Assembly: GCA_018814765.1 (NCBI GenBank)
Contig: JAHIZJ010000099.1
Coordinates: 1 to 46,077, forward strand
Reading direction: 5' to 3'
Source of the DNA: Patescibacteria group bacterium
Lineage (GTDB): Bacteria > Patescibacteriota > Patescibacteriia > JAHIZJ01
Length of the DNA stretch: 46,077 bases
In this document: in pieces, positions 1 to 43,550 of the stretch
Position numbering within the stretch: the first letter of the stretch is position 1
How the letters are laid out: every line of letters begins with the position of its first letter
Notes under the pieces: generated by a model
Databases searched by the model: none
Seen by the model: only the letters and a program-made list of their open reading frames with translations
What the model was told of the DNA's origin: nothing
Translations under genes and position numbers: made by a program

Positions 1-869
1 CCAAGCTTTCGACCGCTCTAAGCCGATATCCGCAGGTATTCAGCGAGTTTTTTGTTCATATGATACGTTCAGGAGAAACGACGGGAAAGCTGGACGAGAC
101 ATTGAATTATTTGGCTGATCAGCTGGAGAAGGACTATGATCTGAACAGTCGAATACGCGGAGCCATGATATATCCTGCATTTATATTGTTTGCCCTAACG
201 GGCGTTGGTGTTGCTATGATGATTTTTGTTATTCCAAAACTGACAGCCGTATTGGAGGAAAGCGGAGCGGAACTACCAATCACTACTCGAATACTGATTG
301 CCACTAGTGAGTTCTTACAGAATGACTGGTGGATACTTGTGTTAGTTATTATTGGTGCTATTTTTGCGTATCGTTCTCTGGCCAGTAGTGAAGCAGGCAG
401 AAGGATGCTTGATAAAATAAAAATACGCTTACCGATAGTAGGAAATTTATTTGTAAAAATCTATCTGACTCGTTTTGCCAGAAGTGTATCGACTTTGATA
501 GCCGGCGGAATACCGCTGACCAGAACAATGGAAATTGTGGCGGATATTGTGGGCAATACCGTTTATCGTGATCTGACGCTGAATACCATTAAAGTGATCG
601 AAGACGGTAATTCAATCGCGACGCTCTATGCTAGGAGCAGTGATGTACCGCCTATGTTGACACAGATGATGGCTGTGGGTGAGCAGACAGGTAAGCTGGA
701 TATCATTTTAAGCAAGTTGTCGGACTTTTATGCCAAAGAAGTTGAGTCAATGATCCATAACTTGGTTACTCTGTTAGAGCCGGTAGTTATGCTTGTCCTG
801 GGCGCGGCAGTGGCGGTGATGATTACAGCCATTCTTCTGCCTATGTATCAGCTATCCACATCAATGTAA
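1..869 (+). CDS. pilC: Type IV pilus / T2SS platform protein, PilC/GspF family, C-terminal part (5' end outside window)
   Basis: The frame is open from nt 3 (KLSTALSRYPQVFSEFFVHMIRSGETTGKLD...), so the 269-aa track ORF is the distal GspF-type half of a longer protein. It has hydrophobic TM stretches and sits next to pilins and a prepilin peptidase. Confidence 0.8.
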   Translation, partial: KLSTALSRYPQVFSEFFVHMIRSGETTGKLDETLNYLADQLEKDYDLNSRIRGAMIYPAFILFALTGVGVAMMIFVIPKLTAVLEESGAELPITTRILIATSEFLQNDWWILVLVIIGAIFAYRSLASSEAGRRMLDKIKIRLPIVGNLFVKIYLTRFARSVSTLIAGGIPLTRTMEIVADIVGNTVYRDLTLNTIKVIEDGNSIATLYARSSDVPPMLTQMMAVGEQTGKLDIILSKLSDFYAKEVESMIHNLVTLLEPVVMLVLGAAVAVMITAILLPMYQLSTSM

Positions 870-930
870 TAGGATTTATGCGTACACCGTTTTTTAGTCC
901 GGCCAAACGTTAGTCCCATATAATACGAAT

Positions 931-1500
931 ATGATTATGAATGTAAAAGACAATAAAAAAGGATTTACATTAATCGAGCTGTTGGTTGTGATTGCTATCA
1001 TTGGTTTACTATCTACATTAGCCATAGTGTCCTTAGCCACTACGCGACAAAAATCTCGTGATTCCAGAAGGTCTTCAGATATTCGCCAGATGCAGACAGC
1101 GGTAGAGATGTATAACAACGAGACCGGTTCGTATCCTAGTAATGTTTCATGGGCGCTTTTGCAGGTGGACATTGGACCGTATCTGGTAGGGGGCGTACTT
1201 CCGACTCCGACTGACCATCCGGGCGATTGTGCTGACGATCCTGCTCCCGACGGTAATCCCTGGGAAAATACTGCGGACAGTAACGTTGATTGCTACATTT
1301 ATTGCTCGAATGCCGATGGTTATTTATTAGGTGCGCGTCATGAGGACAACGGTGCAATAGATGAAGATGTAGATGGTCCTCCTACATCATATCTTGCTGG
1401 AGAGTGTGTTACTGACACTTATCCAATTGCTCAAGTCCCTGCTTTTACCTGTTTGGATGAGCAGGTTGATTACTCCGGCTTCTGCCTGGGTACGCTATAA
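931..1500 (+). CDS. Type IV pilin-like protein (paralog 1)
   Basis: N-terminus MIMNVKDNKKG|FTLIELLVVIAIIGLLSTLAIV is a class III prepilin signal (Gly-1, Phe+1, Glu+5). The C-terminal domain has DCYxYC, GEC and FCLGTL motifs shared with three paralogs. Confidence 0.85.
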   Translation: MIMNVKDNKKGFTLIELLVVIAIIGLLSTLAIVSLATTRQKSRDSRRSSDIRQMQTAVEMYNNETGSYPSNVSWALLQVDIGPYLVGGVLPTPTDHPGDCADDPAPDGNPWENTADSNVDCYIYCSNADGYLLGARHEDNGAIDEDVDGPPTSYLAGECVTDTYPIAQVPAFTCLDEQVDYSGFCLGTL

Positions 1501-1515
1501 AATGCTCGAGTAACA

Positions 1516-1544
1516 TTGCTTTTCTCCTTTATATATGCTATAAT
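1516..1544 (+). promoter_or_regulatory. Sigma70-like promoter of pilin paralog 2
   Basis: TTGCTT (1516-1521), 17-nt spacer, TATAAT (1539-1544). The same block is repeated at 3305-3333. Confidence 0.5.
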
Positions 1545-1654
1545 GTTAATAAGTAAAGAATGTAAGTTAGTTAATTAGTTTAATTAAAATCCTTTCTTCT
1601 TAGAGCTGTCACTAGTGTAGCTTTAAAAGAATCCCATGAAAGGGGGTGAAATAA

Positions 1655-2170
1655 ATGAAAAACAAAAAAGGTTTTACATTGATTGAATTATTGGTTGTTA
1701 TCGCTATTATCGGTCTGCTCTCAACATTGGCTATCGTTTCATTGAACACAGCCCGTGAGAAATCACGTGACTCAAAGAGAGCTTCGGATATCCGCGTAAT
1801 CCAATCAGCTATTGAACTTGAAGTTAATGAGGAGGGTGCTCCACCAACAGCAGCTGACTGGGCAGCTCTCAATACTGCAGTAGGTGAGTATGTAGTTGGA
1901 GGTGCTCTGCCGACTCCTACAGGAACACCTGCTTGTGCTGCTCTTGATGCCGATCCGACTGGAGATTGCTATCTTTATTGTGAAAACGGCAGTGATTATT
2001 TACTAGCAGCTATGTTTGAATCTGGCGGTCCTGGCGATATTACAGGTGACCTGGACGGTGTTGCAGCAAGCTATGCCGCCGGTGAGTGTATTGCCAATAG
2101 TGGTGCACTTACAGCCGATCCAGTCGATATCGATTGTGTTGATCCAAGGTTCTGCTTAGGAACACTCTAA
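1655..2170 (+). CDS. Type IV pilin-like protein (paralog 2)
   Basis: MKNKKG|FTLIELLVVIAIIGLLSTLAIV prepilin signal with a GGGGGTGA RBS upstream. The first ~46 codons are nearly identical at the nucleotide level to paralog 3. The C-terminus ends RFCLGTL. Confidence 0.9.
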   Translation: MKNKKGFTLIELLVVIAIIGLLSTLAIVSLNTAREKSRDSKRASDIRVIQSAIELEVNEEGAPPTAADWAALNTAVGEYVVGGALPTPTGTPACAALDADPTGDCYLYCENGSDYLLAAMFESGGPGDITGDLDGVAASYAAGECIANSGALTADPVDIDCVDPRFCLGTL

Positions 2171-2186
2171 ATAGAATATAAAAAAA

Positions 2187-2213
2187 GGGAGTCGGTGTTT
2201 CGACTCTCTTTTT
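2187..2213 (+). terminator. Intrinsic terminator after pilin paralog 2
   Basis: Stem GGGAGTCG (2187-2194) pairs with CGACTCTC (2201-2208) with one G-U pair, followed by TTTTT. Confidence 0.6.
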
Positions 2214-2242
2214 GATATAAGGAAACATATTAAAAACATTGG

Positions 2243-3294
2243 CTACATTCAATGTTTTAGTGCAACACAGTGATTAAATACTTGTTGTGGTGTTTTGTAG
2301 TCCAATCGTTTCCTTGGCCTATTATTCAATCGTCTTTCAATAGTTTGTATCTCTTCGTTAGATATGGTAGCAAAGTCAGTACCTTTGGGGAAGTAGTATC
2401 TGATTAACCCATTGGTGTTTTCGTTACACCCCCGTTCCCAGGAATGATAAGGATGAGCAAAGTAAATAGGCATATTCAGTTGTTTAGTTATTTCTTTATG
2501 TTTAGCGTTCTCACTACCGTTATCAAGAGTCATAGTCTTCCGTAGATAACTAGGCACTCGTTGCAAGCGTTTCGTGATAACACGTTGTGTTTCACGACTC
2601 GTTCTGTTCACTATTTTACTGATCTTTACTAATCCACTGACTCGTTCGACAATTGTATTTAATCCCACCTTGCTTTTCTTGGAAACAACAGAGTCTCCCT
2701 CCCAGTGCCCAGATTCAACCCGAAGATCAACCACCACTGGTCTCTGATCAATCAAAACCCTGTCTTTTATTGCCCCCTTTTCGACTTTGAAATGTACTTC
2801 CTTTCTTTTTCTAACTTTATGTTTTCTCTTAAGATAGATTCTTAAGTTTTCACCAACCAAAACTCCATAACCTCCTCTAGTATATTGAGAATAGATATAC
2901 TGATAGATGGCTTCATGACTAACTGTTGTTCCCAGTATCTTTTGAGGTAGTGTTCCAGCGATTTGCTCAGGGGACCAATGGTTTGTTTGGAGTCCTTCCT
3001 TCACATAATCCCTGATACTCTGTTCCTTTAATCGAGGACGTTGGCCACGTTGTTTAATGGTTGTCTTAGCTCTCTCATGGGCCAGACGAGGGGCGCTGCG
3101 CCGGATAGTTACGCGTAAGCTCTCGACTAATGGTAGAAGCAGCTCTGCCAAGCTCAGTGGCTATCATGCGTATACTTTTACCCTCCCACAAGCCTAATTG
3201 TATTGCTTCTCTCTCCATAATGGATAATTGTTGATATTTTCTCATATACCCTTCATTCTACATGGTGTTGCACTTACTTGTGGGTAGAATGTAG
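2243..3294 (-). mobile_element. IS30-family insertion sequence (about 1.05 kb)
   Basis: Imperfect inverted ends: 2243 CTACATTC...AGTGCAACAC 2268 matches the reverse complement of 3261-3294 (CTACATTC...AGTGCAACAC). They enclose a single IS30-type DDE transposase gene. The element sits between the pilin-2 terminator and the pilin-3 promoter. No clear target-site duplication was found. Confidence 0.7.
2249..3245 (-). pseudogene. IS30-family DDE transposase, split by a +1 frame change
   Basis: The 300-aa body has IS30 hallmarks (HWEGD, NENTNGLIRYYFPKG, NNRPRKRLDYKTP). The HTH N-terminus MRKYQQLSIMEREAIQLGLWEGKSIRMIATELGRAASTISRELTRN starts at ATG 3245 in another frame and stops at TGA 3075-3077. 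The body frame only has a TTG at 3151. Confidence 0.65.
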
Positions 3295-3304
3295 GATACT
3301 GACA

Positions 3305-3333
3305 TTGCTTTTCTCCTTTATATATGCTATAAT
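3305..3333 (+). promoter_or_regulatory. Sigma70-like promoter of pilin paralog 3 (duplicate of 1516-1544)
   Basis: TTGCTT (3305-3310), 17-nt spacer, TATAAT (3328-3333). Confidence 0.5.
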
Positions 3334-3431
3334 GATAATAAGTAAAGTGTAATAAGTTTAATTAGATCTTTTCTTCTTAGAGCTGTCACTAGTGTAGCTT
3401 TAAAAGAAATCCTTGAAAGGGGGTGAAATAA

Positions 3432-4022
3432 ATGAAAAACAAAAAAGGTTTTACATTGATTGAATTATTGGTTGTTATCGCTATTATCGGTCTGCTCTCA
3501 ACATTGGCTATCGTTTCATTGAACACAGCCCGTGAGAAATCACGAGACTCAAAGAGAGCTTCGGATATGAGAGTTATTCAATCAGGCGTAGAACTGTATA
3601 TTAATGAGACAGGTATGGCACCATCCGCTGATGATTTAGTTGTAGCAGGTAAAACATGGGCTGAATTAGAGGATATGATAGGTACGTATGTGGTTGGAGG
3701 AGATCTACCATTACCTCCAACGGATAATTGTAATGAAGTAGGCGGGTCTGCTGATTCTGATACTGACTGCTACGTCTATTGTGTTGATGATACTGGTGCT
3801 ACCTCTACAGGTAATTACCTCTTGAAAGCCACGATGGAAGCAGACGCAGAAATAACAGGAGATCTGGATTTTGCTAATGATACTTCATATGACACTATCG
3901 GTGAATGTATCTATGTAGATGATGGAGGAAACAGCGTTACCACAACTGTAGTACCAGTGATTAATTGTAATGAAACTGAAGGTGGTACTGGAAATGACCA
4001 TTTCTGCTTAGGCTCTGCCTAG
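3432..4022 (+). CDS. Type IV pilin-like protein (paralog 3)
   Basis: Same prepilin signal and N-terminal helix as paralog 2. The C-terminal domain is divergent but keeps DCYVYC, GEC and HFCLGSA. Confidence 0.9.
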   Translation: MKNKKGFTLIELLVVIAIIGLLSTLAIVSLNTAREKSRDSKRASDMRVIQSGVELYINETGMAPSADDLVVAGKTWAELEDMIGTYVVGGDLPLPPTDNCNEVGGSADSDTDCYVYCVDDTGATSTGNYLLKATMEADAEITGDLDFANDTSYDTIGECIYVDDGGNSVTTTVVPVINCNETEGGTGNDHFCLGSA

Positions 4023-4039
4023 GTATATAGATACAGAGA

Positions 4040-4070
4040 GAGGGCGCGAATTACGTCCTCTTTTTGTTTT
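4040..4070 (+). terminator. Intrinsic terminator after pilin paralog 3
   Basis: Stem GAGGGCG (4040-4046) pairs with CGTCCTC (4054-4060) with one G-U pair, followed by TTTTTGTTTT. Confidence 0.6.
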
Positions 4071-4114
4071 CCCAGCCCTGTGACACAGAGAGTGTTTTGT
4101 AGTATAATTAAACC

Positions 4115-4654
4115 ATGAAAAAACATGTTGGTGGATTTACTTTAATTGAACTATTGGTTGTTATTGCTATTATAGGCCTGCTCTCAACAATGGCCATAGT
4201 GTCACTGGAGTCAGCTCGAGCCAAAACGCATGATAGCAAAAGACTGTCGGACCTAAAAACGCTTATGACAGCGGTTTAGCTGTATATCAATGACAATGGC
4301 CAACCCCCGCCAAACAATGCTGTTGACCCTCCTTGGGCCAATTTACTAAATAGGATTGGTGATTATATCGTTGGAGCACAGTTACCCGTTCCGCCCGGTA
4401 ACTCACCCTGTATATCTACCGGTAATGATCCGACTGGAGATTGTTATACCTACTGTGAAAATGGAACGATCTATCTCCTAGCCGCTGAACTAGAGGAGGA
4501 TACTGCAGTTATCAATGGAGACATAGATGGTGATATTGCAGGTATCTATACAGCACCTGGTCAATGCATTACACAACTTGATGCATTAGGTACAGTCCCA
4601 TATGTTGTTTCGTGCAATGACCCTACATTTTGTCTGGGCCCAAAGCAGGAATAA
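4115..4654 (+). pseudogene. Type IV pilin paralog 4 with an in-frame TAG at codon 55
   Basis: Hand translation gives MKKHVGG|FTLIELLVVIAIIGLLSTMAIVSLESARAKTHDSKRLSDLKTLMTAV*LYINDNGQ...GDCYTYCENG...GQCITQ...VSCNDPTFCLGPKQE. The TAG at 4277-4279 replaces the Glu seen in the paralogs (AIELEV, GVELYI, AVEMYN). The gene is missing from the ORF track because of the split. Confidence 0.75.
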
Positions 4655-5066
4655 TCCATTGATATAAATTTTCAATTATCAATGACCAATTTACAATGAA
4701 TTTTTAATCAACCAATTTTCAGGCTGAGATTCATAATTGATAACTAATCTTATATTGATTTGTAACCTGTAGTCCGTCATCCTAAATTCTTTGTCCCATG
4801 TATGTGCAAGAAACACTCTGATAAACATCGCCGAAAACGCATCCCGATATTCATAAGGAAATTGATCAGCGGCTACGAGATGATTAATTAACTCTGGCTT
4901 TGCCAGATCAAGCAATGCTTGACAATTACCCGATCAACCGATGTAGTTCGTAAGCAATGGGCCTGTATCTAGGGTCTGGCTCAAAGTAGAAATGTAGGAG
5001 TAGAACTAAGGATCATTAATGACAAAATAGCGAAATTCTGGTAGAATCAATAGTGAAGGACCGTGT

Positions 5067-5474
5067 ATGTTTAGCTTTAATAAAACAAAGATCATCGTAA
5101 TAGTGGCTGTAATTATTGTTGTATCTGCTGGTTGGATATGGTGGATAGCCCATGAAAATAAACGCAGTCGTGATATAGAGAGGCTGAGGCACGCGCATAT
5201 CATACAAAACGCCTTTGAGCAAATGTATCAGCATGATCGCAGTTACGAAGCGGCAGCTGAAAGGGGCTGTTCAGAAGAAGGGCAATCTGTCAGAAAATGC
5301 CAGCTCAGAGATTATTACAAAGACATGCCCAAGCTGTATGATCCGGGTAATAAAGATTATGTAGTTACTCAAGTACCAAGCCGGGACAATTATGAGGTTA
5401 CGTTTTGGCTGGAGCTTGGCTACGGAGACGTTGAAAAAGGAGAGCATAAAATTTCACCTGAAGGAATAAAATAA
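5067..5474 (+). CDS. Membrane-anchored hypothetical protein, distantly pilin-like
   Basis: An N-terminal hydrophobic helix (KIIVIVAVIIVVSAGWIWWIA) is followed by KRSRDIERLRHAHIIQNAFEQMY. This parallels the SRDSKRASDIRVIQSAIE segment of the pilins. There is no G|FTLIE cleavage motif. A GAAGGA RBS-like motif lies upstream. Confidence 0.55.
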   Translation: MFSFNKTKIIVIVAVIIVVSAGWIWWIAHENKRSRDIERLRHAHIIQNAFEQMYQHDRSYEAAAERGCSEEGQSVRKCQLRDYYKDMPKLYDPGNKDYVVTQVPSRDNYEVTFWLELGYGDVEKGEHKISPEGIK

Positions 5475-5564
5475 TTTTCCAGGCTTCGCCTGACAACGAT
5501 CAATAACCAATTTTCAATTTACTATAATTATTAATTCTGAATTTTGAATTCTGAATTGTAAACT

Positions 5565-6320
5565 ATGATTACTTTCACAGCCCTACTTATTTTCATCGTT
5601 GGAATCAATATTGGAAGTTTTTTGAATGCTATTATCTGGCGCCTTCATACAAAAGAAGGCTTTTTACGTGGTCGCTCATATTGTCCTAAGTGCAAGACGT
5701 CAATCAGGGCAAGAGACCTTGTGCCGTTATTAAGCTATGCCTTATTAAGGGGTCGGTGTCGTGACTGCCAAAAACACATTGACTGGCAGTATCCTCTGGT
5801 TGAGCTTATCACCGGAGTCCTTTTTGTAATCACTTATTTAAAATTTTCCTTAAGCGAAGAATTTATTGTCTACGCTATCTATGTTTCCTTTTTAATCGTA
5901 GTGTTCGTTTTTGACCTCAGACATTATTTGATACTTGATCGGGTTATGCTTCCGGCCGGGATTGTGGCGTTGTTTGGCAGTTTAATTTTGGGCGTTGGAT
6001 TTTTCAATATACTCATTGGCATAATAATTGGCGGTGGTTTCTTCTTTTTGCAATACGTCTTATCACGAGGCAAATGGATTGGCGGAGGTGATATAAGACT
6101 GGGCCTTGTGATGGGCTTGATGCTGGGCTGGGAAAAGTTGTTGGCTGCCTTATTTGTGAGCTATCTAATCGGTTCGGTTGCCGGGATTTCATTGGTGCTA
6201 TGGAAACAAAAAAAATGGCAGAGTCGTTTGCCTTTTGGAGTATTTTTAACCACAGCCACATTTGTCACCCTAGTTTGGGGAGAAGTTTTGATTAATTGGT
6301 ATTTGGATCTAGTGGGGTAA
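5565..6320 (+). CDS. pilD: Prepilin peptidase (A24 family, PilD-like)
   Basis: Has the Cys-rich box CPKCKTSIRARDLVPLLSY...GRCRDCQKHIDWQYPLVEL, multiple TM helices and a GGGDIRLG motif, within a pilus-locus context. Confidence 0.9.
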   Translation: MITFTALLIFIVGINIGSFLNAIIWRLHTKEGFLRGRSYCPKCKTSIRARDLVPLLSYALLRGRCRDCQKHIDWQYPLVELITGVLFVITYLKFSLSEEFIVYAIYVSFLIVVFVFDLRHYLILDRVMLPAGIVALFGSLILGVGFFNILIGIIIGGGFFFLQYVLSRGKWIGGGDIRLGLVMGLMLGWEKLLAALFVSYLIGSVAGISLVLWKQKKWQSRLPFGVFLTTATFVTLVWGEVLINWYLDLVG

Positions 6321-6326
6321 ATATTT

Positions 6327-6938
6327 ATGAGAATCGACAAAGGCTATACGTTAATTGAGTTGTTAGTAACTATTTCAATATTTATTATTATTTCCACTGT
6401 TGGGTTGGTATCATTTCTACGACACCGCCAAGCGACCGATCTGGATAGTAGCGTATCTGAGCTGTCCAGCAATATCAGAAAAGTACAGGGCTATACACGT
6501 TCAGGTAGGGGTGAAGGCGGTCTTCATCCACGTGCTTATGGTGTGAGTATTGATCTTGATACCAATGACTCTTATATTTTATATGCTGACGCTGACGAAT
6601 TACCTGGTTTTGATCCGAGCACATACTGTTATGCTTGTTATGGGGAGGCAGATGTTCTCATTGATGATTATAGTCTGCTTAATAATACAACCCTGGATGC
6701 TATCAATATTACTGGACTTGCAACGATAGCGGATATTACAAAAGTTTATCTTGTTTTTATTGTTCCAACATCTGAACTAAAAATAGTATATGAGGACCCA
6801 GACGCTGGTGGTTTTGTTTCTTATGAAGTACCGGGAGAAAAAGAGGTCAGAATCACCGTTAAACATCTGAAGTCTGAAGACACAAAGACAGTAAAAGTTA
6901 CTGGTGGGGCTTTTGGTGGCGTAACAGTTGAAGAATAA
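6327..6938 (+). CDS. Minor pilin / pseudopilin-like protein
   Basis: MRIDKG|YTLIELLVTISIFIIIS is a class III signal peptide. Confidence 0.75.
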   Translation: MRIDKGYTLIELLVTISIFIIISTVGLVSFLRHRQATDLDSSVSELSSNIRKVQGYTRSGRGEGGLHPRAYGVSIDLDTNDSYILYADADELPGFDPSTYCYACYGEADVLIDDYSLLNNTTLDAINITGLATIADITKVYLVFIVPTSELKIVYEDPDAGGFVSYEVPGEKEVRITVKHLKSEDTKTVKVTGGAFGGVTVEE

Positions 6939-7644
6939 TATTATGAGACACAAGAAGAATCAAAAAGGCATTACTATACTGGAAACAATTATCGCAATCT
7001 TTGTAATTATGGTTGGTATTACCTCTGCGGTTGTGCTAATAATTGCCAGTACATCAGCTGCCAGAAAGACTAAAAATGAACTAATCGCGTCAAATCTGGC
7101 ACGTGAAACTATCGAAGTGATACGCAATAAACGCGATTCAAATTGGCTAAAGATTGAATCTGGTGAATTAGCCAGCAGTATGTGGGATGACGGATTGGGT
7201 GATTATATTAATAATTATTATGATGGAATTTATCACTTTGATGACGAAGGAATCGGTCCGGATGATCCAGCATTCGGTTGGACCTTTTTCTATGAAGATG
7301 ATTACGACATTGATGATCTAAATGATTTACGACCCCAGATTTATTATCATGACGATTCTGGAGCTAAACTTTACAATCAGTATGATGGAGCTATATTTTT
7401 ACCACCAGCCGGACAGAATACAATATTTAGAAGAGTTTTTGAGACAAATCCGATTTGCTATGACGAGACTGTAGTCCCACAAGAAATGATTGCTACCACA
7501 GAGTCTGGAGATGATTGTGACAGCCTACCTGATAATAGGAAAAAGATTGGCATTCAAGTTGTTGTTCATGTTCACTGGCGTGATGTAGGGAACAATAAAA
7601 CGTTTGAACTGATTCAAGAAGACCGTTTATATAATTGGAAATAA
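6928..7644 (+). CDS. Minor pilin / pseudopilin-like protein
   Basis: ...KKNQKG|ITILETIIAIFVIMVGI is a class III signal. The start could instead be the Met at 6943. Confidence 0.7.
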   Translation: MKNNIMRHKKNQKGITILETIIAIFVIMVGITSAVVLIIASTSAARKTKNELIASNLARETIEVIRNKRDSNWLKIESGELASSMWDDGLGDYINNYYDGIYHFDDEGIGPDDPAFGWTFFYEDDYDIDDLNDLRPQIYYHDDSGAKLYNQYDGAIFLPPAGQNTIFRRVFETNPICYDETVVPQEMIATTESGDDCDSLPDNRKKIGIQVVVHVHWRDVGNNKTFELIQEDRLYNWK

Positions 7645-7647
7645 CGT

Positions 7648-8316
7648 ATGAGACTTAAATTCACAAAAGATAGTCGAGGTATTGGTCTGATGGAAACGGT
7701 TATAGTTACCGGTATATTCGCAATTTCCATGGGGATTATTTCTGTCATAATGATAAACAGTATTAAACATCAGCGGATAGTTCATGCCGAACAGGTTGTA
7801 GTGGGCGCGGCTCGTGATACTATTGAAACCCTGGCTCGTGAAATACGTCTGGGCTATATTGATTATATGGCGCATATAGATGCATCGGACCGTATCAGTG
7901 ATGATGAACCGGATAGTAATCCTACGACAAATCTGCATATTAAATCGTATGCAGGCAGTGATATTGAAATTACTACTAACGCCGAAGGTGAAGTTATGGC
8001 CGGTAATTTAAAAATCAGCTCTGACGAAATAAATGTAACGGATTTAACGTTTTACGTACAACCAACTTCTGATCCTTTTTGGGTGAAGCGCTGTGATAGT
8101 CCTAATGACTGTGATTATACTAACATGCCAGTTATGAAAGACCCTACAGGACTTCCTGGAGGATTTTGTACACCCGTAGGTATCTGTCTTATAGAGGATG
8201 AACAGCCTCGTGTAACTATTGTTATGCGGGCTGAAACAAACGAGCCGGCGGATTCGGATAGATTTACTGTTATTGATTTACAAACCACTGTCTCTACAAG
8301 GACATATCAACGATGA
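7648..8316 (+). CDS. Minor pilin / pseudopilin-like protein
   Basis: ...KDSRG|IGLMETVIVTGIFAISMG is a class III-like signal with Glu+5. Confidence 0.7.
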   Translation: MRLKFTKDSRGIGLMETVIVTGIFAISMGIISVIMINSIKHQRIVHAEQVVVGAARDTIETLAREIRLGYIDYMAHIDASDRISDDEPDSNPTTNLHIKSYAGSDIEITTNAEGEVMAGNLKISSDEINVTDLTFYVQPTSDPFWVKRCDSPNDCDYTNMPVMKDPTGLPGGFCTPVGICLIEDEQPRVTIVMRAETNEPADSDRFTVIDLQTTVSTRTYQR

Positions 8317-9110
8317 TAAAAAACTTTCAAAAAAATCAAGCCGGTGCCACTTTAATCTTAGCCATACTGACAATGGCTGCAATTACCGCCGTGGCTGTAG
8401 CTATCTCCGTTTTGATATTAAATGAAGTTATCACAACGCGTGGCATTACTTATTCCGTTAAGTCATTTTATTCAGCGGAGGCTGCCACAGAACAAGCGCT
8501 TTGGAAAGTGAGAGATGTTCAGCTGAGCGGTGGGACAATAGAGGATGCCGAAGCGGTCATTGATGGGATGAATGGTACTCTAGAAGATTCGCGCGTATCC
8601 TGGGAGCGTACAGCAATTCATAAGAAAGAGTCTATTTCGTTAAACTTAGTCCAAGACGAATCAGTATTCCTTAATGTCTACGATGAAGGTGGACTAGTTC
8701 CCGGTATTTTCCGGATAGAAGATTGTCCTCTTATTGCCAACGTAGAGGCTACCTGGTCGGGTTGGGATCCGGCTTTAGGCTTTTCTGATCAAACCTACAA
8801 ACAGTATCCCGTAGCATGTGATACGGACTATACAATAACACAGCCGGTAGGCCATAACCAGAACAAGTTTAGTTTTCAGTTAAGAGCCTTCGATAATTCC
8901 GTAGTAGATAAGGAATTTATTATTAAAACAGTGGCCGGCGTACCCATTGAAATACCCAGTGAAATACAGATAATTTCAACCGGCGAATATCCCAAGGGAG
9001 GTGCTTACTCGGCAGCTCAAGCTATCCAGGTAAATTTCCCTTGGCTACTACCGATATCAGGTGTTTATTCTTATGTGTTGTTTTCTGATTCGGAATTGAA
9101 TAAAGATTAA
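8313..9110 (+). CDS. PilX-like minor pilus protein (hydrophobic N-terminus without Glu+5)
   Basis: MIKNFQKNQAG|ATLILAILTMAAITAVAVA. It overlaps the previous gene by 4 nt and is the last gene of the pilin block. Confidence 0.6.
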   Translation: MIKNFQKNQAGATLILAILTMAAITAVAVAISVLILNEVITTRGITYSVKSFYSAEAATEQALWKVRDVQLSGGTIEDAEAVIDGMNGTLEDSRVSWERTAIHKKESISLNLVQDESVFLNVYDEGGLVPGIFRIEDCPLIANVEATWSGWDPALGFSDQTYKQYPVACDTDYTITQPVGHNQNKFSFQLRAFDNSVVDKEFIIKTVAGVPIEIPSEIQIISTGEYPKGGAYSAAQAIQVNFPWLLPISGVYSYVLFSDSELNKD

Positions 9111-35449: not shown

Positions 35450-35491
35450 AATTACGTCCCATGATGGTTCAGGTTAGCGCCATCACCCAAA

Positions 35492-35592
35492 CTGTCATGC
35501 CGTCCCCCACCCTTTAACAAAAGGGTGGGTGGATCGGCATCTCAAAAGGCACCATCTCTCTGGAGACCCCGGATCGCGGTTCGGGGTGACAG
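35492..35592 (+). repeat. 100-nt structured repeat element, copy A
   Basis: CTGTCATGCCGTCCCCCACCCTTTAACAAAAGGGTGGGTGGATCGGCATCTCAAAA... The first 56 nt are identical to 39667-39722. The element closes with CTGTCA/TGACAG and has four internal hairpins. Confidence 0.7.
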
Positions 35593-39379: not shown

Positions 39380-39666
39380 ACTTTTACTATACGCAAAACC
39401 AGCAGTCTATTCTAATGCTAGTGTTTTTTGCTGTGTGTTCGCCACTTTTCTTTTAGCCCCTCACCACGTAGGGTTCGGGACAGGAAAGAAAAGGCAATAA
39501 AAAACGCAGGCGAGGATGATCCCCGCATCAAGTGCGAGACATGGATTAAAAAAAGGGTAAATAAAAGAATATCCGCCAGAGGCGGATTCGCCCTTCGTGG
39601 CGGAAAGCCGTAGCTGCCAAACTTGCTCAAGATATTATTATTCCTATTTGATACTTTCCATACATA

Positions 39667-39766
39667 CTGTCATGCCGTCCCCCACCCTTTAACAAAAGGG
39701 TGGGTGGATCGGCATCTCAAAAACCACGGTCTCTCTGGAGACCCTGAAACAAGTTCAGGGTGACAG
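39667..39766 (+). repeat. 100-nt structured repeat element, copy B
   Basis: The first 56 nt are identical to copy A. The distal hairpin differs by paired changes (CCCTGAA...TTCAGGG here, CCCCGGA...TTCGGGG in copy A). Confidence 0.7.
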
Positions 39767-39901: not shown

Positions 39902-40399
39902 TTACTCCTTTTGTTCGTAATAGAGTCTTTCAATTTCTTTCAGGTCTTCAACAGGTTCAGTATCGTAGGTGGCTTCCAGCAGCTCACCCTTATCCTTATC
40001 TTCCATAACAATATTCCATCTGCCTACCTGATCATTATAGCGACACTCGGGAAAGAAGACATGATGATGCCAGGAAATTTTTTTGGAGTTCATGTCTTCA
40101 GCTCGAGCGACCATCTTCTTAATATTGGGATGCTGGGGAGGACCCGCTTTGTCGGATTGTTTTAATATCTTTTCACCGTGTAGGAGCTGAACAAGCTTTT
40201 TTCCAATGGCAAGTTGACGTTTGTCAGTATAGACAAAAAAACTCTCATCATCTGAAGTATTTTCCAGAACCAGCGAGTGCTTATCATTACTATCATTAAA
40301 CAAACAGTCCGGAGTGAGCATATGAAAATGCCACCTTTTTTCGGCTGTTTGCCACTCTTTGGCTTTAGTTAGTACTTCTTTTAAATCGATTTCTTCCAT
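39902..40399 (-). CDS. Hypothetical protein with a tandem W-H-x-H...P-[DE]-C-x-x-N repeat
   Basis: RWHFHMLTPDCLFNDSNDKHSLVLEN and SWHHHVFFPECRYNDQVGRWNIVMED are two copies of one module. No family was recognised. Confidence 0.6.
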   Translation of the reverse strand: MEEIDLKEVLTKAKEWQTAEKRWHFHMLTPDCLFNDSNDKHSLVLENTSDDESFFVYTDKRQLAIGKKLVQLLHGEKILKQSDKAGPPQHPNIKKMVARAEDMNSKKISWHHHVFFPECRYNDQVGRWNIVMEDKDKGELLEATYDTEPVEDLKEIERLYYEQKE

Positions 40400-40439
40400 A
40401 CATTTATGATGACGCAGATTAATAAGTTAGTCAAATAAA
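40366..40439 (-). repeat. Direct repeat copy 1 (start codon, first codons and upstream region of gene 39902-40399)
   Basis: 40385-40439 is identical over 55 nt to 41087-41141. Weaker similarity extends to 40366. Confidence 0.8.
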
Positions 40440-41059: not shown

Positions 41060-41141
41060 TCTTTGGCTTTGTTTAGCACTTTTTAGATCGATTTCTTCCA
41101 TACATTTATGATGACGCAGATTAATAAGTTAGTCAAATAAA
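41060..41141 (-). repeat. Direct repeat copy 2, carrying a truncated 5' gene fragment (MEEIDLK...)
   Basis: 41087-41141 is identical to 40385-40439. The minus strand reads ATGGAAGAAATCGATCTAAAA... and then diverges and decays. Confidence 0.75.
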
Positions 41142-41447: not shown

Positions 41448-41545
41448 GTAGTGAACCACTCGCTTTGCTTGGGTTCACTACATGAACCACTCACTTTATT
41501 TGATATGGCTGCACCATGAACTCGAACGAAGTGAGTAGTTCATGG
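41448..41545. repeat. Cluster of long palindromic hairpins sharing a TGAACCACTC core
   Basis: GTAGTGAACC (41448-41457) pairs with GGTTCACTAC (41472-41481). CATGAACCACTCACTT (41481-41496) pairs with AAGTGAGTAGTTCATG (41529-41544). CCATGAACT (41514-41522) pairs with AGTTCATGG (41537-41545). Confidence 0.6.
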
Positions 41546-41619
41546 TGGGAGCAGGAGGATTCGAACCTCCGACCGTCTGCTTAAAAGGCAGCTGCTCTAC
41601 CTAACTGAGCTATACTCCC
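41543..41619 (-). tRNA. tRNA-Lys (anticodon UUU), CCA encoded
   Basis: Hand-folded on the minus strand: GGGAGTA|TA|GCTC-AGTTAGGTA-GAGC|A|GCTGC-CTTTTAA-GCAGA|CGGTC|GGAGG-TTCGAAT-CCTCC|TGCTCCC|A|CCA. Confidence 0.9.
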
Positions 41620-41883: not shown

Positions 41884-41966
41884 TGTGGCCATAGCTAAAA
41901 GTAACTGGAAACCACCCTGAGCATTAGCGAAGGGCCTTTCGGTAATTTCTAGCTATGGCTACCACA
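41884..41966 (+). promoter_or_regulatory. Long stem-loop in the 5' leader of the DGR target gene
   Basis: TGTGGCCATAGCT (41884-41896) pairs with AGCTATGGCTACCACA (41951-41966): 13 bp with a 3-nt bulge. The 54-nt interior contains a CGAAG-GGCC-TTTCG hairpin. It ends 50 nt before the ATG. Confidence 0.45.
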
Positions 41967-42015
41967 GACGGTGATAGCCCGATAGCGATACTCCAAACTA
42001 GAGGAGGATGACGCC

Positions 42016-42678
42016 ATGTCGAAAGATGTGTCCCCATCCGAAGTAACCATCACGAAAGGCCAGTGTTGCAAGCTCATGGATGTGGGCGCGGACGCGCTGG
42101 TCAAGAGCGGCCTGCCCAGCAAGGAGACCCAGGACGTGATCGAAGAGGAGGGCGCGGAAATTGCCAAAGTCCTGGTCGCGGATGTCCGCCGCAGAGTTGA
42201 GGCACGCCTGCGTGCCATCGAACCCCACGTTCTGGAACGTCTGCCTTTCGACCCCGAATCCTTCTCGGGCAAGGGGTGGGAGGTTGACGAGCGTGTCGGC
42301 AACCGCACCGGAGGAAACCTCGACGCGGGACAGATTGTCCGCATGGACTACCTGCGTGAGGGCGAGACCTACATCACCGGAGATGAACGTCTCCATCGTA
42401 TCAAGGAAGCACCCGGAGACATCCAGCTCGACGCCGAGGACTTCCTTGCCTTGTGGCAGGAGCAGGGCCACGCCACCCTCCGGTGGCTGTACGACACTAA
42501 GGGTATCACCTGGCTGTCGTTTTGGGGTACGGTTCTCCGCGACTCAGGCAGCCGCGGCGTCCTCTGCCTCTCTCGCGATGACGGCGGTTCCTGGGACTGG
42601 GACTACCGCTGGCTCGGCAATGACTGGGTCTACTACTACCCGGCGGGTGTCCTCGCAAGTAACCCCCGCACCGAATAG
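42016..42678 (+). CDS. DGR target (variable) protein, 220 aa, no signal peptide, GC-rich
   Basis: GAGGAGGA RBS 7 nt upstream of the ATG. The C-terminus GVLCLSRDDGGSWDWDYRWLGNDWVYYYPAGVLASNPRTE carries the variable repeat. Chosen over the overlapping GC-artefact ORFs. Confidence 0.75.
   Translation: MSKDVSPSEVTITKGQCCKLMDVGADALVKSGLPSKETQDVIEEEGAEIAKVLVADVRRRVEARLRAIEPHVLERLPFDPESFSGKGWEVDERVGNRTGGNLDAGQIVRMDYLREGETYITGDERLHRIKEAPGDIQLDAEDFLALWQEQGHATLRWLYDTKGITWLSFWGTVLRDSGSRGVLCLSRDDGGSWDWDYRWLGNDWVYYYPAGVLASNPRTE
42592..42658 (+). repeat. DGR variable repeat (VR)
   Basis: 67 nt, in frame (codons 193-215). 58 of 67 positions are identical to 43176-43242, and all 9 differences lie opposite adenines of the other copy. 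Confidence 0.8.
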
Positions 42679-42686
42679 GTGCGGGG
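42664..42686 (+). promoter_or_regulatory. GC-rich hairpin immediately 3' of the VR (candidate DGR target-recognition hairpin)
   Basis: CCCCGCACC (42664-42672) pairs with GGTGCGGGG (42678-42686), loop GAATA. It spans the TAG stop codon. No T-run follows. It is absent next to the TR. Confidence 0.5.
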
Positions 42687-42866
42687 CAGGTAGTTCTTGG
42701 AACTTGACCTCCTAGACCTCTTTGGTCTTTGGATTCAGTTCTTAGAGCTTTGTCCGCTCGGCCCGCGCTGGTTTCTACACTGGCGCGGGTCATTTCTTTT
42801 TGACGCGAAGCGTCATGTCGAGCGACCTGTGGTGAGCGAAGTCGAACCAAGTCGAGACATCTCATT

Positions 42867-42895
42867 TTGCTTTTGGTGTTTGTTTTGGATATACT
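42867..42895 (+). promoter_or_regulatory. Sigma70-like promoter upstream of the template repeat
   Basis: TTGCTT (42867-42872), 17-nt spacer, TATACT (42890-42895). Confidence 0.4.
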
Positions 42896-43175
42896 AACTT
42901 TGGTACTAGGTTAATCAGTCAGCGACTATTGTTGCTGACGACCGAATCCAGTGACCATATTACTCAGAGTACCGCAGGCCACGGTTTGCGGCAGCGTGGA
43001 ATACGGCGCTCAAAAAACGATGTTACTTGGTATAGCGCGTTAAGGCATTTAATATGCCGGATACGATACAGCCCCAAGAGTACTCAAAGGGCAGTGGCAT
43101 GGACGGCACGCTGTACAGAACCGCAACGCTGATGGCAATATCAACGTCCGTTACCTCAACTGGGATGATGACAGG

Positions 43176-43242
43176 TGGAACTGGAACTACAACTGGCTCG
43201 ACAATGACTGGAACTACAACAACCCGGCGGGTGTCCTCGCAA
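43176..43242 (+). repeat. DGR template repeat (TR) core; the TR-like Asn-codon-rich stretch may extend 5' to about 43074
   Basis: Noncoding: in-frame stops at 43041 and 43050, and no ATG in that frame. It is AAC/AAT-rich (reads WNWNYNWLDNDWNYNNPAGVLA). All 47 non-A positions are identical to the VR. Confidence 0.8.
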
Positions 43243-43254
43243 ATTACCTCGTTT

Positions 43255-43283
43255 CTCTCCCTTGTTTGGGAGAGTTTTGTTTT
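43255..43283 (+). terminator. Terminator-like hairpin directly after the TR
   Basis: CTCTCCC (43255-43261) pairs with GGGAGAG (43268-43274), followed by TTTTGTTTT. Confidence 0.45.
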
Positions 43284-43301
43284 GTAAGTTGGCCGTTCTA
43301 G

Positions 43302-43550
43302 CCTCCTACTAATAAGGTATCTATTAAAACCGTGGCTTCGGGAGTGGATTTTCTGGGCTGGGTGCATTTTCCTAACCATCGGGTATTGAGGACTGTTGCA
43401 AAACGTAGGATGTTAAAGAATCTTGATATCAAACAAGGTGAGAACGCAACAGCACAGTCGTATATTGGTCTGTTACAGCACGGGAATACTAAGAAGCTAT
43501 CCCAACGAGTATCTGATGTGTCAGGAAATAGCGAGCAGTACAAAAATTGA
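43302..43550 (+). pseudogene. DGR-type reverse transcriptase, C-terminal fragment only (about 82 codons)
   Basis: PPTNKVSIKTVASGVDFLGWVHFPNHRVLRTVAKRRMLKNL...SYIGLLQHGNTKKL parallels the end of the Bordetella phage Brt (..SRGINFLGYRIWPTHKLLRKSSVKRAKRKV...SWSGHAQWADTHNL, recalled from memory). There is an in-frame TAG at 43299, no ATG, and no palm domain or YxDD motif anywhere upstream. Confidence 0.6.

What the first reader, a model, noticed from the sequence alone, without database searches (positions are those of the whole stretch)
1513..4022. Two pilin genes share a near-identical promoter, leader and N-terminal block with sharply divergent C-terminal domains
From about 1583 to about 1790 and from 3360 to 3580 the sequence is almost identical. 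This covers the leader, the RBS and the first ~46 codons, up to ..SKRASDI/M. There are only a few substitutions (for example cgT/cgA in the Arg codon of SRD). Identity collapses immediately afterwards, and the mature C-terminal domains differ in length (171 and 196 aa) and sequence. Paralog 1 encodes the same N-terminal peptide with quite different codons. The identity of 2 and 3 therefore reflects recent duplication or gene conversion, not selection on the protein. This is the architecture expected for recombinational switching or shuffling of surface-exposed pilin domains on a constant assembly helix.
Basis: seen in the sequence. Interest (0 to 1): 0.65.

Follow-up and report, generated by a model that had tools for sequence, protein, structure and literature searches.

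The report
Two pilin genes sharing one front end
Two neighbouring pilus-subunit genes of an uncultured groundwater bacterium (Patescibacteria type) carry a recently copied, almost identical promoter, leader and first 45 codons in front of old, very different surface domains. This is a real but fairly ordinary product of recombination between gene copies, and no evidence for a programmed switch was found.

Summary
Window 1513-1790 and 3302-3567 are 93% identical. This block covers a TGnTATAAT promoter, a ~105-nt leader, the ribosome-binding site and codons 1-45. The coding part has 1 difference in 137 nt; the rest of the genes has 152 in 364 (breakpoint test, 0/2000 permutations).

Synonymous divergence is 0.03 between pilins 2 and 3. 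It is saturated (0.93) against pilin 1, whose peptide is 88% identical. The identity is therefore recent recombination, not protein constraint.

Three independent metagenome runs support both copies and all unique junctions, so this is not an assembly artefact.

Both genes are complete transcription units with their own terminators, in direct orientation. I found no silent cassettes, invertase or G4 element. The IS30 element between them is a recent insertion, absent in a 99.8%-identical strain. Programmed switching is not supported.

In strains ~99.7% identical elsewhere, the two variable domains are replaced by divergent alleles. Two other Patescibacteria pilin arrays show the same mosaic with a similar boundary.

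Best reading: co-regulated, co-assembling major pilins with a homogenised expression-and-assembly module and exchangeable heads.

The parts
60..869 (+). 3' part of pilC (T2SSF platform protein), upstream of the pilin array
   Evidence: Pfam PF00482, E 8e-38
931..1500 (+). Pilin 1. Same family, old paralogue. N-terminal peptide 88% identical to pilins 2 and 3, but nucleotides only 70% identical.
   Evidence: PF07963; pS 0.93 versus pilin 2
1513..1654 (+). Block copy 1, non-coding part: -35-like TTGCTT 1517-1522, extended -10 TGcTATAAT 1536-1544, ~105-nt leader with hairpin 1596-1630, Shine-Dalgarno AGGGGGTGA 1641-1649
   Evidence: Alignment and sequence read. The promoter is assigned by eye; the consensus scan did not list it because only 3 of 6 positions match in the -35. 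Leader folds.
1655..1789 (+). Constant coding part of pilin 2: 6-aa leader peptide MKNKKG, then FTLIEL..., codons 1-45
   Evidence: 1 difference in 137 nt versus copy 2; PF07963 / TIGR02532
1790..2170 (+). Variable part of pilin 2 (rest of helix alpha-1 plus the globular domain); 171-aa precursor in total
   Evidence: About 42% nucleotide differences and 41-52% aa identity to pilin 3. 1832-2139 is not found at 80% or more in strains X4 and X5.
2187..2214 (+). Intrinsic terminator of pilin 2
   Evidence: Hairpin -18.3 kcal/mol, z -6.9, followed by a U run; listed by the scan on the minus strand
2241..3296 (-). IS30-family insertion sequence. The transposase is split into two overlapping frames (3245..3075 HTH_38; 3151..2249 catalytic). 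The ends are approximate: imperfect inverted repeats CTACATTC ... AGTGCAACAC. No clear target duplication.
   Evidence: NF033563, E 7e-76; frames. An X5 contig joins 2221 to 3303 through 27 nt, i.e. an empty site. Single-copy depth in X1-X3.
3302..3431 (+). Block copy 2, non-coding part (same promoter, leader and Shine-Dalgarno; 12 nt shorter in the AT-rich patch)
3432..3566 (+). Constant coding part of pilin 3, codons 1-45
3567..4022 (+). Variable part of pilin 3; 196-aa precursor in total
   Evidence: AF2 model pLDDT 85.6, helix residues 9-60 then a beta domain. Strain X4 carries an allele about 80% identical starting exactly at 3568, and is identical again from 3996.
4040..4070 (+). Intrinsic terminator of pilin 3
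   Evidence: Hairpin -19.5 kcal/mol, z -5.3, followed by a U run
4115..4654 (+). Pilin 4, a pseudogene: in-frame TAG at 4277-4279 (codon 55, a nearly invariant Glu of the family)
   Evidence: Translation. Strain X4 has G at 4277 (GAG); X1-X3 have T. E54 is nearly invariant in alignment A1.
5565..6320 (+). Prepilin peptidase (PilD), which would process all four prepilins
   Evidence: PF06750 E 8e-31 and PF01478 E 2e-12
6327..7644 (+). Two minor-pilin-like genes (6327-6938, 6928-7644)
   Evidence: PF07963, E 1e-5 and 5e-4

Best explanation
The locus is the pilin array of a type IV pilus cluster (pilC, four pilins, pilD, minor pilins) on a contig of an uncultured Patescibacteria-type bacterium.

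Pilins 2 and 3 are old paralogues. Their globular domains are as different from each other as from pilins of other species. Their whole front module has recently been made identical by non-allelic homologous recombination. That module comprises the promoter, the ~105-nt leader, the ribosome-binding site, the 6-aa class III signal peptide and the first ~39 residues of the mature alpha-1 helix.

Two routes are possible and are not resolved here:
- a partial gene conversion or segmental copy of the front module, or
- a tandem duplication of one unit, followed by replacement of one head by an imported allele.

Shown here: the sharp two-sided block, the synonymous-site contrast, the presence of both copies in three runs, the independence of the two transcription units, the recency of the IS, and strain-level replacement of the heads.

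Inferred consequences:
- The two genes are transcribed and translated under the same control.
- Both are cut by the same PilD.
- Both present the same filament-core helix, so both can enter the same pilus. The pilus could be heteropolymeric, or a mix of filaments.
- They display two different surfaces, probably for attachment to different partners or surfaces.

The identical block also serves as the upstream homology anchor through which heads are exchanged between strains. Further conversion between the now-identical copies would keep the block homogeneous.
For: Block anatomy and statistics.

Synonymous divergence over 40 codons is 0.03 for pilin 2 versus 3. It is 0.93 for pilin 1 versus 2 despite 88% aa identity, and 0.61 for pilin 2 versus 4.

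Pilin identity and cluster context: PF07963 / TIGR02532, pilC, pilD and minor pilins. The AF2 model has a 52-residue N-terminal helix plus a beta domain, and the top Foldseek hits are type IV pilins.

Separate transcription units: each gene is followed by a strong terminator hairpin.

Both copies are real: the junction contigs and the k-mer depth model hold in X1-X3.

The IS is secondary: strain X5 shows the empty site with the second block still in place.

Exchangeable heads: X4 and X5 are 99.7-99.8% identical to the window in 3.8-4.1 kb of flanks (11/3787 and 8/4146 differences). Yet 1832-2139 and 3568-3995 are below 80-93% identity or missing. The X4 divergence starts exactly at the 3' edge of the block, with 3 differences in 202 nt followed by 11 in 55 nt.

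Recurrence: the same mosaic occurs in two unrelated Patescibacteria contigs with a different pilin subfamily.
- L015 genes 3 and 4: 100% identical from about 105 nt upstream to about codon 49, then 55%.
- L022 genes 2 and 3: identical block from about 90 nt upstream to about codon 46-58.

Precedent for several tandem major pilins with an identical alpha-1: Streptococcus sanguinis PilA1/PilA3 are identical over residues 1-53 (PMC11121087). Its pilus is called heteropolymeric in PMC11623550.
Against: No expression data exist: no RNA run holds the locus. The promoter is assigned by eye, and the consensus scan did not list it.

Co-assembly is pure inference.

The 5' edge of the block abuts non-homologous DNA in both copies (the pilin 1 stop codon versus the pilin 2 terminator). 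A classical two-sided conversion tract does not explain this, and it favours a duplication-type junction.

The array is visibly in flux: pilin 4 is a pseudogene and an IS has landed in the array. The homogenisation may therefore have no adaptive meaning.

The phasing of the copy-specific variants rests on the deposited assembly. k=31 contigs cannot phase across the block.

The Foldseek matches to solved pilins are weak (best E 0.012).
Confidence: 0.68

Rival explanations
1. Programmed recombinational switching or shuffling within a cell line. The duplicated block would be the crossover site of a device that alternates or reshuffles pilin heads at high frequency, as in antigenic or phase variation.
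For: There are two about 270-bp direct repeats at 93% identity, with 132 nt of perfect identity. This is enough for RecA-type recombination. The heads vary between near-identical strains.
Against: Both copies are complete expressed-type genes. There are no promoterless or 5'-truncated donors, no inverted copy of the block in the window and no G4 motif in 1-6000. No invertase or tyrosine recombinase lies in the neighbourhood, and the IS30 transposase is frameshifted and strain-specific.

A crossover between direct repeats gives only an irreversible deletion. The depth of 1738-3331 equals that of the flanks in three runs (47.4 vs 48.6; 13.1 vs 14.4; 52.6 vs 50.6).
Confidence: 0.07
2. Neutral by-product. 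The block is simply the scar of a recent partial duplication or conversion in a decaying, fluctuating pilin array. It has no selected role in co-expression or co-assembly, and one of the two genes may be redundant.
For: Pilin 4 carries a nonsense codon. An IS has inserted in the array. Only 3 of 81 examined loci show such blocks.
Against: Both open reading frames, the signal peptides, the ribosome-binding sites and the terminators are intact. The block is kept in strains X4 and X5, with only differences that are shared between the copies. The same module, with a similar 3' boundary inside alpha-1, recurs in two independent lineages. That argues for a constraint on where chimeras are tolerated.
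Confidence: 0.2
3. Assembly artefact. One copy would be a duplicated or strain-chimeric stretch created by the metagenome assembler.
For: The window is a MAG contig. The copy-1-specific leader (1545-1737) is absent from the Logan contigs of X1-X3 at 95% or more.
Against: Three runs each give the unique junction contigs pilin1-to-block, block-to-pilin2-IS-to-block and block-to-pilin3 at equal depth. The collapsed block contig consists only of window 31-mers, and its depth fits two non-identical copies. The missing leader variant is what bubble popping in k=31 contigs would produce. Strains X4 and X5 also show two entries into the block.
Confidence: 0.03
4. Selection at the nucleotide level. A regulatory RNA or translation signal spanning the leader and early codons would keep the two sequences identical without recent recombination.
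For: The leader contains a conserved hairpin (1596-1630) and a possible hairpin that sequesters the Shine-Dalgarno sequence. The latter is kept in both copies despite 3 changes.
Against: There is no Rfam match and the folding z-scores are not significant (-1.7, -0.7, -1.4). Pilins 1 and 4 lack the leader entirely, and synonymous sites in the same codons are saturated against pilin 1 and strongly diverged (pS 0.61-0.62) against pilin 4. The closest species (L003) shares the coding block at only 86% and does not share the leader.
Confidence: 0.04

Closest known systems
Multiple tandem major pilins of Streptococcus sanguinis type IV pili (PilE1/PilE2; PilA1-3 in strain CGMH010)
   Same: Several full-length major pilin genes sit side by side in the pil cluster. 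Their alpha-1 regions are identical (PilA1/PilA3 identical over residues 1-53) and their globular parts differ. The filaments are reported as heteropolymeric (PMC11121087; PMC11623550).
   Different: There the paralogues are similar over their whole length (70-94% aa). Here the heads are only 41-52% identical, and the identity includes the promoter and a long leader. Each gene here has its own promoter and terminator. Co-assembly has not been shown here.
Neisseria pilE/pilS antigenic variation
   Same: Homologous recombination acts on pilin genes, the N-terminus is constant and the exposed C-terminal part is variable.
   Different: The architecture is the opposite. In Neisseria the constant 5' part and promoter exist once, and the silent copies hold only variable parts. 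Here the constant part with its promoter is duplicated and both genes are complete. No G4 or sRNA initiator was found.
Invertible or shufflon pilin systems (Moraxella tfpQ/I with Piv; R64 PilV shufflon with Rci)
   Same: Alternative C-terminal pilin segments are joined to one constant N-terminal segment.
   Different: Those systems need inverted repeats and a dedicated site-specific recombinase. Here the repeats are direct and no such recombinase gene lies near the array.
Concerted evolution and partial interlocus gene conversion of bacterial paralogues, and tandem archaeal pilins or archaellins with identical N-terminal hydrophobic domains (Haloferax PilA1-6; from my own knowledge, not checked here)
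   Same: A segment of two paralogues is far more alike than the rest, with a sharp boundary. In those families the constant part is the assembly helix.
   Different: The tract here includes the whole promoter and leader and ends at non-homologous DNA on the 5' side. That fits a duplication junction better than a classical conversion tract.
Pilin allele replacement between strains (for example the Pseudomonas aeruginosa pilA groups; from my own knowledge), and clade-specific pilins with conserved machinery in Saccharibacteria (PMC7739484)
   Same: The machinery and flanks are conserved, while the pilin head is replaced between close relatives. This has been proposed to track the specificity of the partner or host.
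   Different: Here the replacement is seen between strains about 99.7% identical, at two adjacent genes, with the left crossover boundary coinciding with the duplicated block.

Membership tests
Type IV pilin (class III signal peptide prepilin) | Short basic leader ending in Gly, then F/M at +1 and Glu at +5, followed by a hydrophobic helix (N-methylation motif) | tested here: met
   MKNKKG|FTLIELLVVIAIIGLL. PF07963 E 5e-10 and 7e-10; TIGR02532 E 3e-9 and 4e-9.
Type IV pilin (class III signal peptide prepilin) | Lollipop fold: N-terminal helix of about 50 residues packed on a beta-sheet globular domain | tested here: met
   AF2 model of pilin 3: pLDDT 85.6, helix residues 9-60, four strands. 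The top Foldseek PDB hits are gonococcal pilin, TcpA and C. difficile PilA1, but they are weak (best E 0.012).
Type IV pilin (class III signal peptide prepilin) | Encoded with the assembly machinery (platform protein, prepilin peptidase, minor pilins) | tested here: met
   pilC 60-869, pilD 5565-6320, minor pilins 6327-7644.
Type IV pilin (class III signal peptide prepilin) | Polymerises into a surface filament | not testable with these tools
   Needs microscopy or biochemistry.
Multi-major-pilin (heteropolymeric) type IV pilus, S. sanguinis type | Two or more adjacent full-length major pilin genes with an identical alpha-1N | tested here: met
   Pilins 2 and 3 are identical over precursor residues 1-45.
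Multi-major-pilin (heteropolymeric) type IV pilus, S. sanguinis type | Both subunits expressed and found in the same filament | not testable with these tools
   No RNA run holds the locus.
Interlocus gene conversion / concerted evolution | A segment of the paralogues has much lower synonymous divergence than the rest, with a significant breakpoint | tested here: met
   pS 0.03 in the block. Third positions differ at 1/45 versus 69/122. Maximum chi-square 79, 0/2000 permutations.
Interlocus gene conversion / concerted evolution | The tract is flanked by homologous sequence on both sides | tested here: not met
   On the 3' side homologous coding sequence continues. On the 5' side the block abuts unrelated DNA (the pilin 1 stop at 1500 versus the pilin 2 terminator and spacer), also in the IS-free strain X5. 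This points to a duplication-type junction for the original event.
Neisseria-type pilE/pilS antigenic variation | Silent donor copies that lack the promoter and the 5' constant coding part | tested here: not met
   Both copies have a promoter, Shine-Dalgarno sequence, ATG and the constant part.
Neisseria-type pilE/pilS antigenic variation | G-quadruplex or sRNA initiator next to the expression locus | tested here: not met
   No G3+N1-7 x4 motif on either strand of 1-6000.
Invertible-segment or shufflon pilin switches | Inverted repeats bounding the alternative segments | tested here: not met
   Only direct copies of the block are present, with no inverted copy in the window.
Invertible-segment or shufflon pilin switches | Adjacent site-specific recombinase (Piv, Rci or Hin type) | tested here: not met
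   Genes in 1-13 kb were annotated. The only recombination enzyme is an IS30 DDE transposase.
IS30 family insertion sequence (element 2241-3296) | DDE transposase of the IS30 type with an N-terminal HTH | tested here: met
   NF033563 E 7e-76; HTH_38 E 7e-18.
IS30 family insertion sequence (element 2241-3296) | Single intact transposase frame, terminal inverted repeats and a 2-3-bp target duplication | tested here: inconclusive
   The frame is split between 3245..3075 and 3151..2249. The inverted repeats are imperfect (an 8-nt core plus a 10-nt subterminal match, read by eye). No target duplication could be recognised. Mobility is shown by the empty site in strain X5.

The most novel reading that the evidence does not exclude
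In Patescibacteria pilin arrays, the stretch from the promoter to about residue 40 of alpha-1 behaves as a portable, repeatedly homogenised expression-and-assembly module. Its 3' edge is set by the structural boundary between the filament-core helix and the part of alpha-1 that packs on its own head. It acts as the standing homology anchor by which lineages stack or swap partner-binding pilin heads through ordinary homologous recombination. This would give these host-dependent bacteria a fast way to change what they attach to.

The recurrence of the same mosaic in three unrelated lineages, and the head replacement between 99.7%-identical strains, are compatible with this reading.
Probability: 0.25. 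Interest if true: 0.55.

Novelty: new member of a known kind. Interest (0 to 1): 0.35.

Why it matters
Type IV pili are the best candidate organelles for attachment of Patescibacteria (CPR) to their partner cells. Pilin diversity has been proposed to follow partner specificity (PMC7739484; PMC11623550).

This locus gives a concrete, sequence-level picture of how that diversity is organised:
- One constant front end secures equal regulation, processing and filament compatibility.
- The heads are old, different and exchanged between nearly identical strains.

This is an example of a known evolutionary process, not a new mechanism. It does offer a testable system with defined breakpoints, two natural head alleles under one promoter type, and sister strains with other heads.

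For annotators it is also a caution. Blocks like this break short-read assemblies and can hide pilin copies.

Tried and rejected
1. I tried to test alternative junctions with reads. Only Logan k=31 contigs were available for X1-X5, with no raw reads. A 270-bp repeat cannot be phased or checked for chimeras with them. Only the depth comparison and the k-mer model were possible.

2. An exact 29-mer of the block found nothing in the JGI metagenome contigs. The second scan that was allowed was not used, because a near-identical relative was evidently not in that collection.

3. No RNA run holds the locus, so there are no transcription start sites or expression data.

4. Rfam found no family in 800-5100 at E up to 1, and only two tRNAs in the whole window. 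The leader folds are not significant. A riboswitch-type leader, such as the c-di-GMP control of C. difficile pilA1, is therefore not supported.

5. Diversity-generating retroelement: rejected. The block has a single T/A difference, the head differences involve all bases, and no reverse transcriptase is among the genes annotated next to the array. The rest of the window was not scanned for one.

6. IS-mediated origin of the duplication: rejected. Strain X5 has the second block without the IS.

7. Orthology of the two heads in the nearest species (L003, L004) could not be resolved. The C-terminal identities form a star (42-58%).

8. Among the 59 best of 4030 family members that I fetched, none has the exact block peptide ...AREKSRDSKRASD with another head.

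9. Base composition of the heads gave no clear sign of foreign origin.
Full report
**Source and context**

The window is the complete 46,077-bp contig JAHJGH010000040.1 of the metagenome-assembled genome GCA_018824475.1. Near-identical DNA is present in two groundwater runs and one biofilm metagenome run (X1-X3). They hold 93-94% of the sampled words, at about 48x, 14x and 52x depth. A closely related strain is present in two further groundwater runs, X4 and X5.

The nearest relatives of the pilins are all from Patescibacteria (CPR) genomes. They include Komeili-, Buchanan-, Kuenen- and Falkowbacteria-type bins and "Patescibacteria group bacterium" records. Some TPA records carry other labels.

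The first 9 kb of the window hold a type IV pilus gene set:
- the 3' part of pilC (60-869, PF00482)
- pilin 1 (931-1500)
- pilin 2 (1655-2170)
- an IS30-family element on the minus strand (about 2241-3296)
- pilin 3 (3432-4022)
- pilin 4 (4115-4654, with an in-frame stop)
- a small ORF (5067-5474)
- the prepilin peptidase (5565-6320)
- minor-pilin-like genes (6327-7644), followed by two further ORFs without family matches (7648-9110)

ligA and gatA follow.

**The observation**

A global alignment, the repeat finder and BLAST of the block against the window agree. Window 1513-1790 and 3302-3567 form a direct repeat of 278/266 nt at 92.8% identity. The window holds no further close copy and no inverted copy.

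The differences cluster in two places:
- an AT-rich stretch of the leader (1546-1594, with an 11-12-nt length difference)
- three bases just upstream of the ribosome-binding site (1632/1633/1636 versus 3409/3410/3413)

From there to the end of codon 45 there is one difference, the synonymous cgT/cgA at 1768/3545. Codon 46 is Ile in pilin 2 and Met in pilin 3. Synonymous differences begin immediately after it (CGC/AGA, GTA/GTT, ATC/ATT).

On a codon alignment the maximum chi-square breakpoint lies at CDS nt 137. Differences are 1/137 to the left and 152/364 to the right, and none of 2000 permutations reached the observed value. Third positions differ at 1 of 45 codons before the break and 69 of 122 after it, so the heads are close to saturation.

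**Not protein constraint**

I compared the 40 codons from the Gly of the cleavage site onward:

| Pair | aa identity | nt identity | pS |
|---|---|---|---|
| Pilin 1 vs pilin 2 | 88% | 70% | 0.93 |
| Pilin 2 vs pilin 4 | 82% | 74% | 0.61 |
| Pilin 2 vs pilin 3 | 100% | 99% | 0.03 |

The same peptide is conserved in many species. The closest species-level relative, L003, shares the coding block at only 86% nucleotide identity and does not share the leader. In addition, 142 nt of non-coding DNA belong to the block. The identity is therefore a recent recombination or duplication event.

**Not an assembly artefact**

In each of X1, X2 and X3 the Logan contigs reproduce three unique pieces without a single difference:
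- 1-1542
- 1738-3331 (pilin 2 head, terminator, IS, start of block 2)
- 3515 onward

Their depths are equal: 48.8 / 47.4 / 48.5, 14.3 / 13.1 / 14.6 and 53.5 / 52.6 / 47.7.

The block itself appears as one short contig of 243-267 nt. Its sequence is a mosaic of the two window copies. All of its 31-mers exist in the window, 113 in both copies and 100 in one. The mean depth predicted from that is 73.8, 78.5 and 20.7. The observed values are 72.2, 86.6 and 22.7. A perfectly identical two-copy repeat would give 96, 103 and 28.

The apparent absence of the copy-1 leader variant from these contigs is what bubble removal in k=31 contigs produces. The same depths show that no sizeable part of the population lacks the pilin 2 plus IS segment.

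**Anatomy of each unit**

The block begins with TTGCTT (1517-1522), followed by 16 nt and TGcTATAAT (1536-1544), an extended -10 element. I read this by eye. The consensus scan did not list it because the -35 matches in only 3 of 6 positions.

The leader of about 105 nt contains a hairpin (1596-1630) and a strong Shine-Dalgarno sequence (AGGGGGTGA, 1641-1649). It matches no Rfam family and its folding energies are not significant.

Each gene ends with a strong hairpin plus U run:
- 2187-2214: -18.3 kcal/mol, z -6.9
- 4040-4070: -19.5 kcal/mol, z -5.3

The two genes are therefore separate, similarly equipped transcription units.

The prepilins start MKNKKG|FTLIEL (PF07963, TIGR02532). An AlphaFold model of pilin 3, built on 40 family members, has pLDDT 85.6. 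It shows a helix from residue 9 to 60 followed by a small beta domain. The best Foldseek matches in the PDB are type IV pilins, but they are weak.

The block thus covers the signal peptide and the first ~39 residues of the mature alpha-1. It ends inside the C-terminal half of that helix.

**The IS**

The element encodes an IS30-family transposase (NF033563, E 7e-76; HTH_38) that is split over two frames. It is at single-copy depth in X1-X3.

In strain X5 a contig joins 2221 to 3303 through 27 nt. This skips 1081 nt and is the empty site. The second block starts at the same place there. The IS is therefore a recent insertion between the pilin 2 terminator and the promoter of pilin 3. It did not create the duplication.

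**Variation between strains**

X4 and X5 are 99.7% and 99.8% identical to the window over 3.8 and 4.1 kb of flanking contigs (11/3787 and 8/4146 differences).

Within the array the picture differs:
- The block is conserved. X4 has 1 difference in 1580-1791. X5 carries the copy-2 letters at 1632-1636.
- The X4 allele of pilin 3 has 3 differences in 202 nt of block and then 11 in the next 55 nt. It is not found at 80% or more between 3623 and 3995, and it is identical again from 3996.
- Pilin 2 is matched in X5 up to 1831 and again from 2140, but not between.
- Both strains show two different entries into the block, so they also have two copies.

The heads are therefore replaced between very close strains, with the left boundary at the edge of the block.

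**Recurrence elsewhere**

Among 81 loci with relatives of the pilin, I compared 291 same-strand pilin pairs. Most have 35-55% nucleotide identity over the 126 nt that follow the cleavage-site Gly codon.

Two other contigs show the same mosaic, with a different and shorter pilin subfamily:
- L015, genes 7187-7624 and 7721-8164: 100% identical from about 105 nt upstream, including TATAAT-like elements, to about codon 49. After that they are 55% identical in nucleotides and 41% in amino acids.
- L022, genes 774-1259 and 1356-1781: a shared block from about 90 nt upstream to about codon 46-58.

L026, in contrast, holds paralogues that are similar over their whole length. The front-module mosaic is thus occasional but recurrent, and its 3' edge falls in the same part of alpha-1.

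**Interpretation**

Shown:
- two real copies of a sharply bounded block
- recent origin of the identity
- old heads
- independent transcription units
- a secondary IS
- strain-level head replacement
- recurrence in other lineages

Inferred:
- The same promoter, leader and Shine-Dalgarno sequence give the same regulation.
- The same signal peptide and alpha-1N give the same processing by PilD and compatibility in one filament.
- The two different heads give two surfaces.

The closest experimentally studied parallel is the set of tandem major pilins of Streptococcus sanguinis. They have an identical alpha-1 and form heteropolymeric pili (PMC11121087; PMC11623550).

The route to the present state is open. 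The 5' edge lies against unrelated DNA in both copies. This fits a duplication junction, or a one-sided copy event, better than a two-sided conversion tract. A duplication followed by import of a different head through the conserved block is equally possible, and would match what is seen between strains. Once identical, the 132-nt perfect stretch is long enough for further RecA-dependent conversion, or for deletion of the segment between the copies.

**Why not a switch**

- There are no silent or truncated cassettes, no inverted repeats, no nearby invertase or shufflon-type recombinase, and no G4 motif.
- Both genes are "on" by design.
- The only product of a crossover between the direct repeats is loss of pilin 2 and the IS.
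- No such subpopulation is visible in the depth.

The direct read-level test could not be run, because only contigs were served.

**Verdict**

The switching idea is not supported, although exchange of heads on a constant helix does happen between strains.

This is a clean new example, in an uncultured lineage, of known phenomena: tandem major pilins with a common assembly helix, partial concerted evolution, and allele replacement at pilin loci. Interest is moderate to low. The most novel admissible reading is a recurrent, structurally bounded module that serves head exchange in CPR bacteria. It deserves a genome-wide survey.

Noticed in passing
window 4115-4654 (stop at 4277-4279): Pilin 4 is interrupted by TAG at codon 55, at a Glu that is nearly invariant in the family. 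Runs X1-X3 all have T. The related strain X4 has G (GAG). This is therefore a population-specific nonsense mutation, i.e. a pseudogene.
   Followed up: yes
window 2241-3296: The IS30-family element has its transposase split into two overlapping frames (shift near 3085-3110). It is identical in three runs, at single-copy depth, and absent from strain X5. Its end lies within about 7 nt of the start of the duplicated block. No target duplication was recognisable.
   Followed up: partly
window 918-937 and 4080-4117: Pilins 1 and 4 have a TATAAT only about 6-8 nt before the ATG. For pilin 4 this is GTGACA-17-TATAAT, an 11/12 match, with no Shine-Dalgarno sequence. This suggests leaderless mRNAs. 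Pilins 2 and 3 instead have a ~105-nt leader with a strong Shine-Dalgarno sequence.
   Followed up: no
window 1546-1594 / 3335-3372: The AT-rich part of the leader (TTAGTTAATTAG-like units) differs in length by 11-12-nt steps. This holds between the two copies and among strains; X5 has a further 12 nt. The meaning is unknown.
   Followed up: partly
window 5067-5474: This 135-aa ORF has a hydrophobic N-terminal helix followed by a pilin-like RSRDIERLRHAHIIQNAFEQMY stretch. It lacks the G/FTLIE cleavage motif and has no Pfam match. A promoter-like site lies at 5019-5047.
   Followed up: no
window 41900-43400: This is a GC-rich island (56-62% GC against about 40%) next to tRNA-Lys (41543-41619). 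It has overlapping ORFs on both strands. The 220-aa ORF 42016-42678 has no Pfam match, and there is no Rfam match. It could be foreign DNA or a mis-join.
   Followed up: partly
window 35488-35592 / 39663-39766 and 40356-40439 / 41060-41141: Two further short direct repeats in the window (89% over 105 nt; 93% over 84 nt).
   Followed up: no
L015 5985-8164: Four tandem pilins follow pilB and pilC. Different pairs share different near-identical stretches, so this is a mosaic array with several conversion or duplication events.
   Followed up: partly
alignment A1 (pilin family): The family has conserved Cys positions (DCYxYC, ECx, a Cys about 13 residues before the end, and FCLG at the C-terminus). 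This suggests two disulfides in the head.
   Followed up: no
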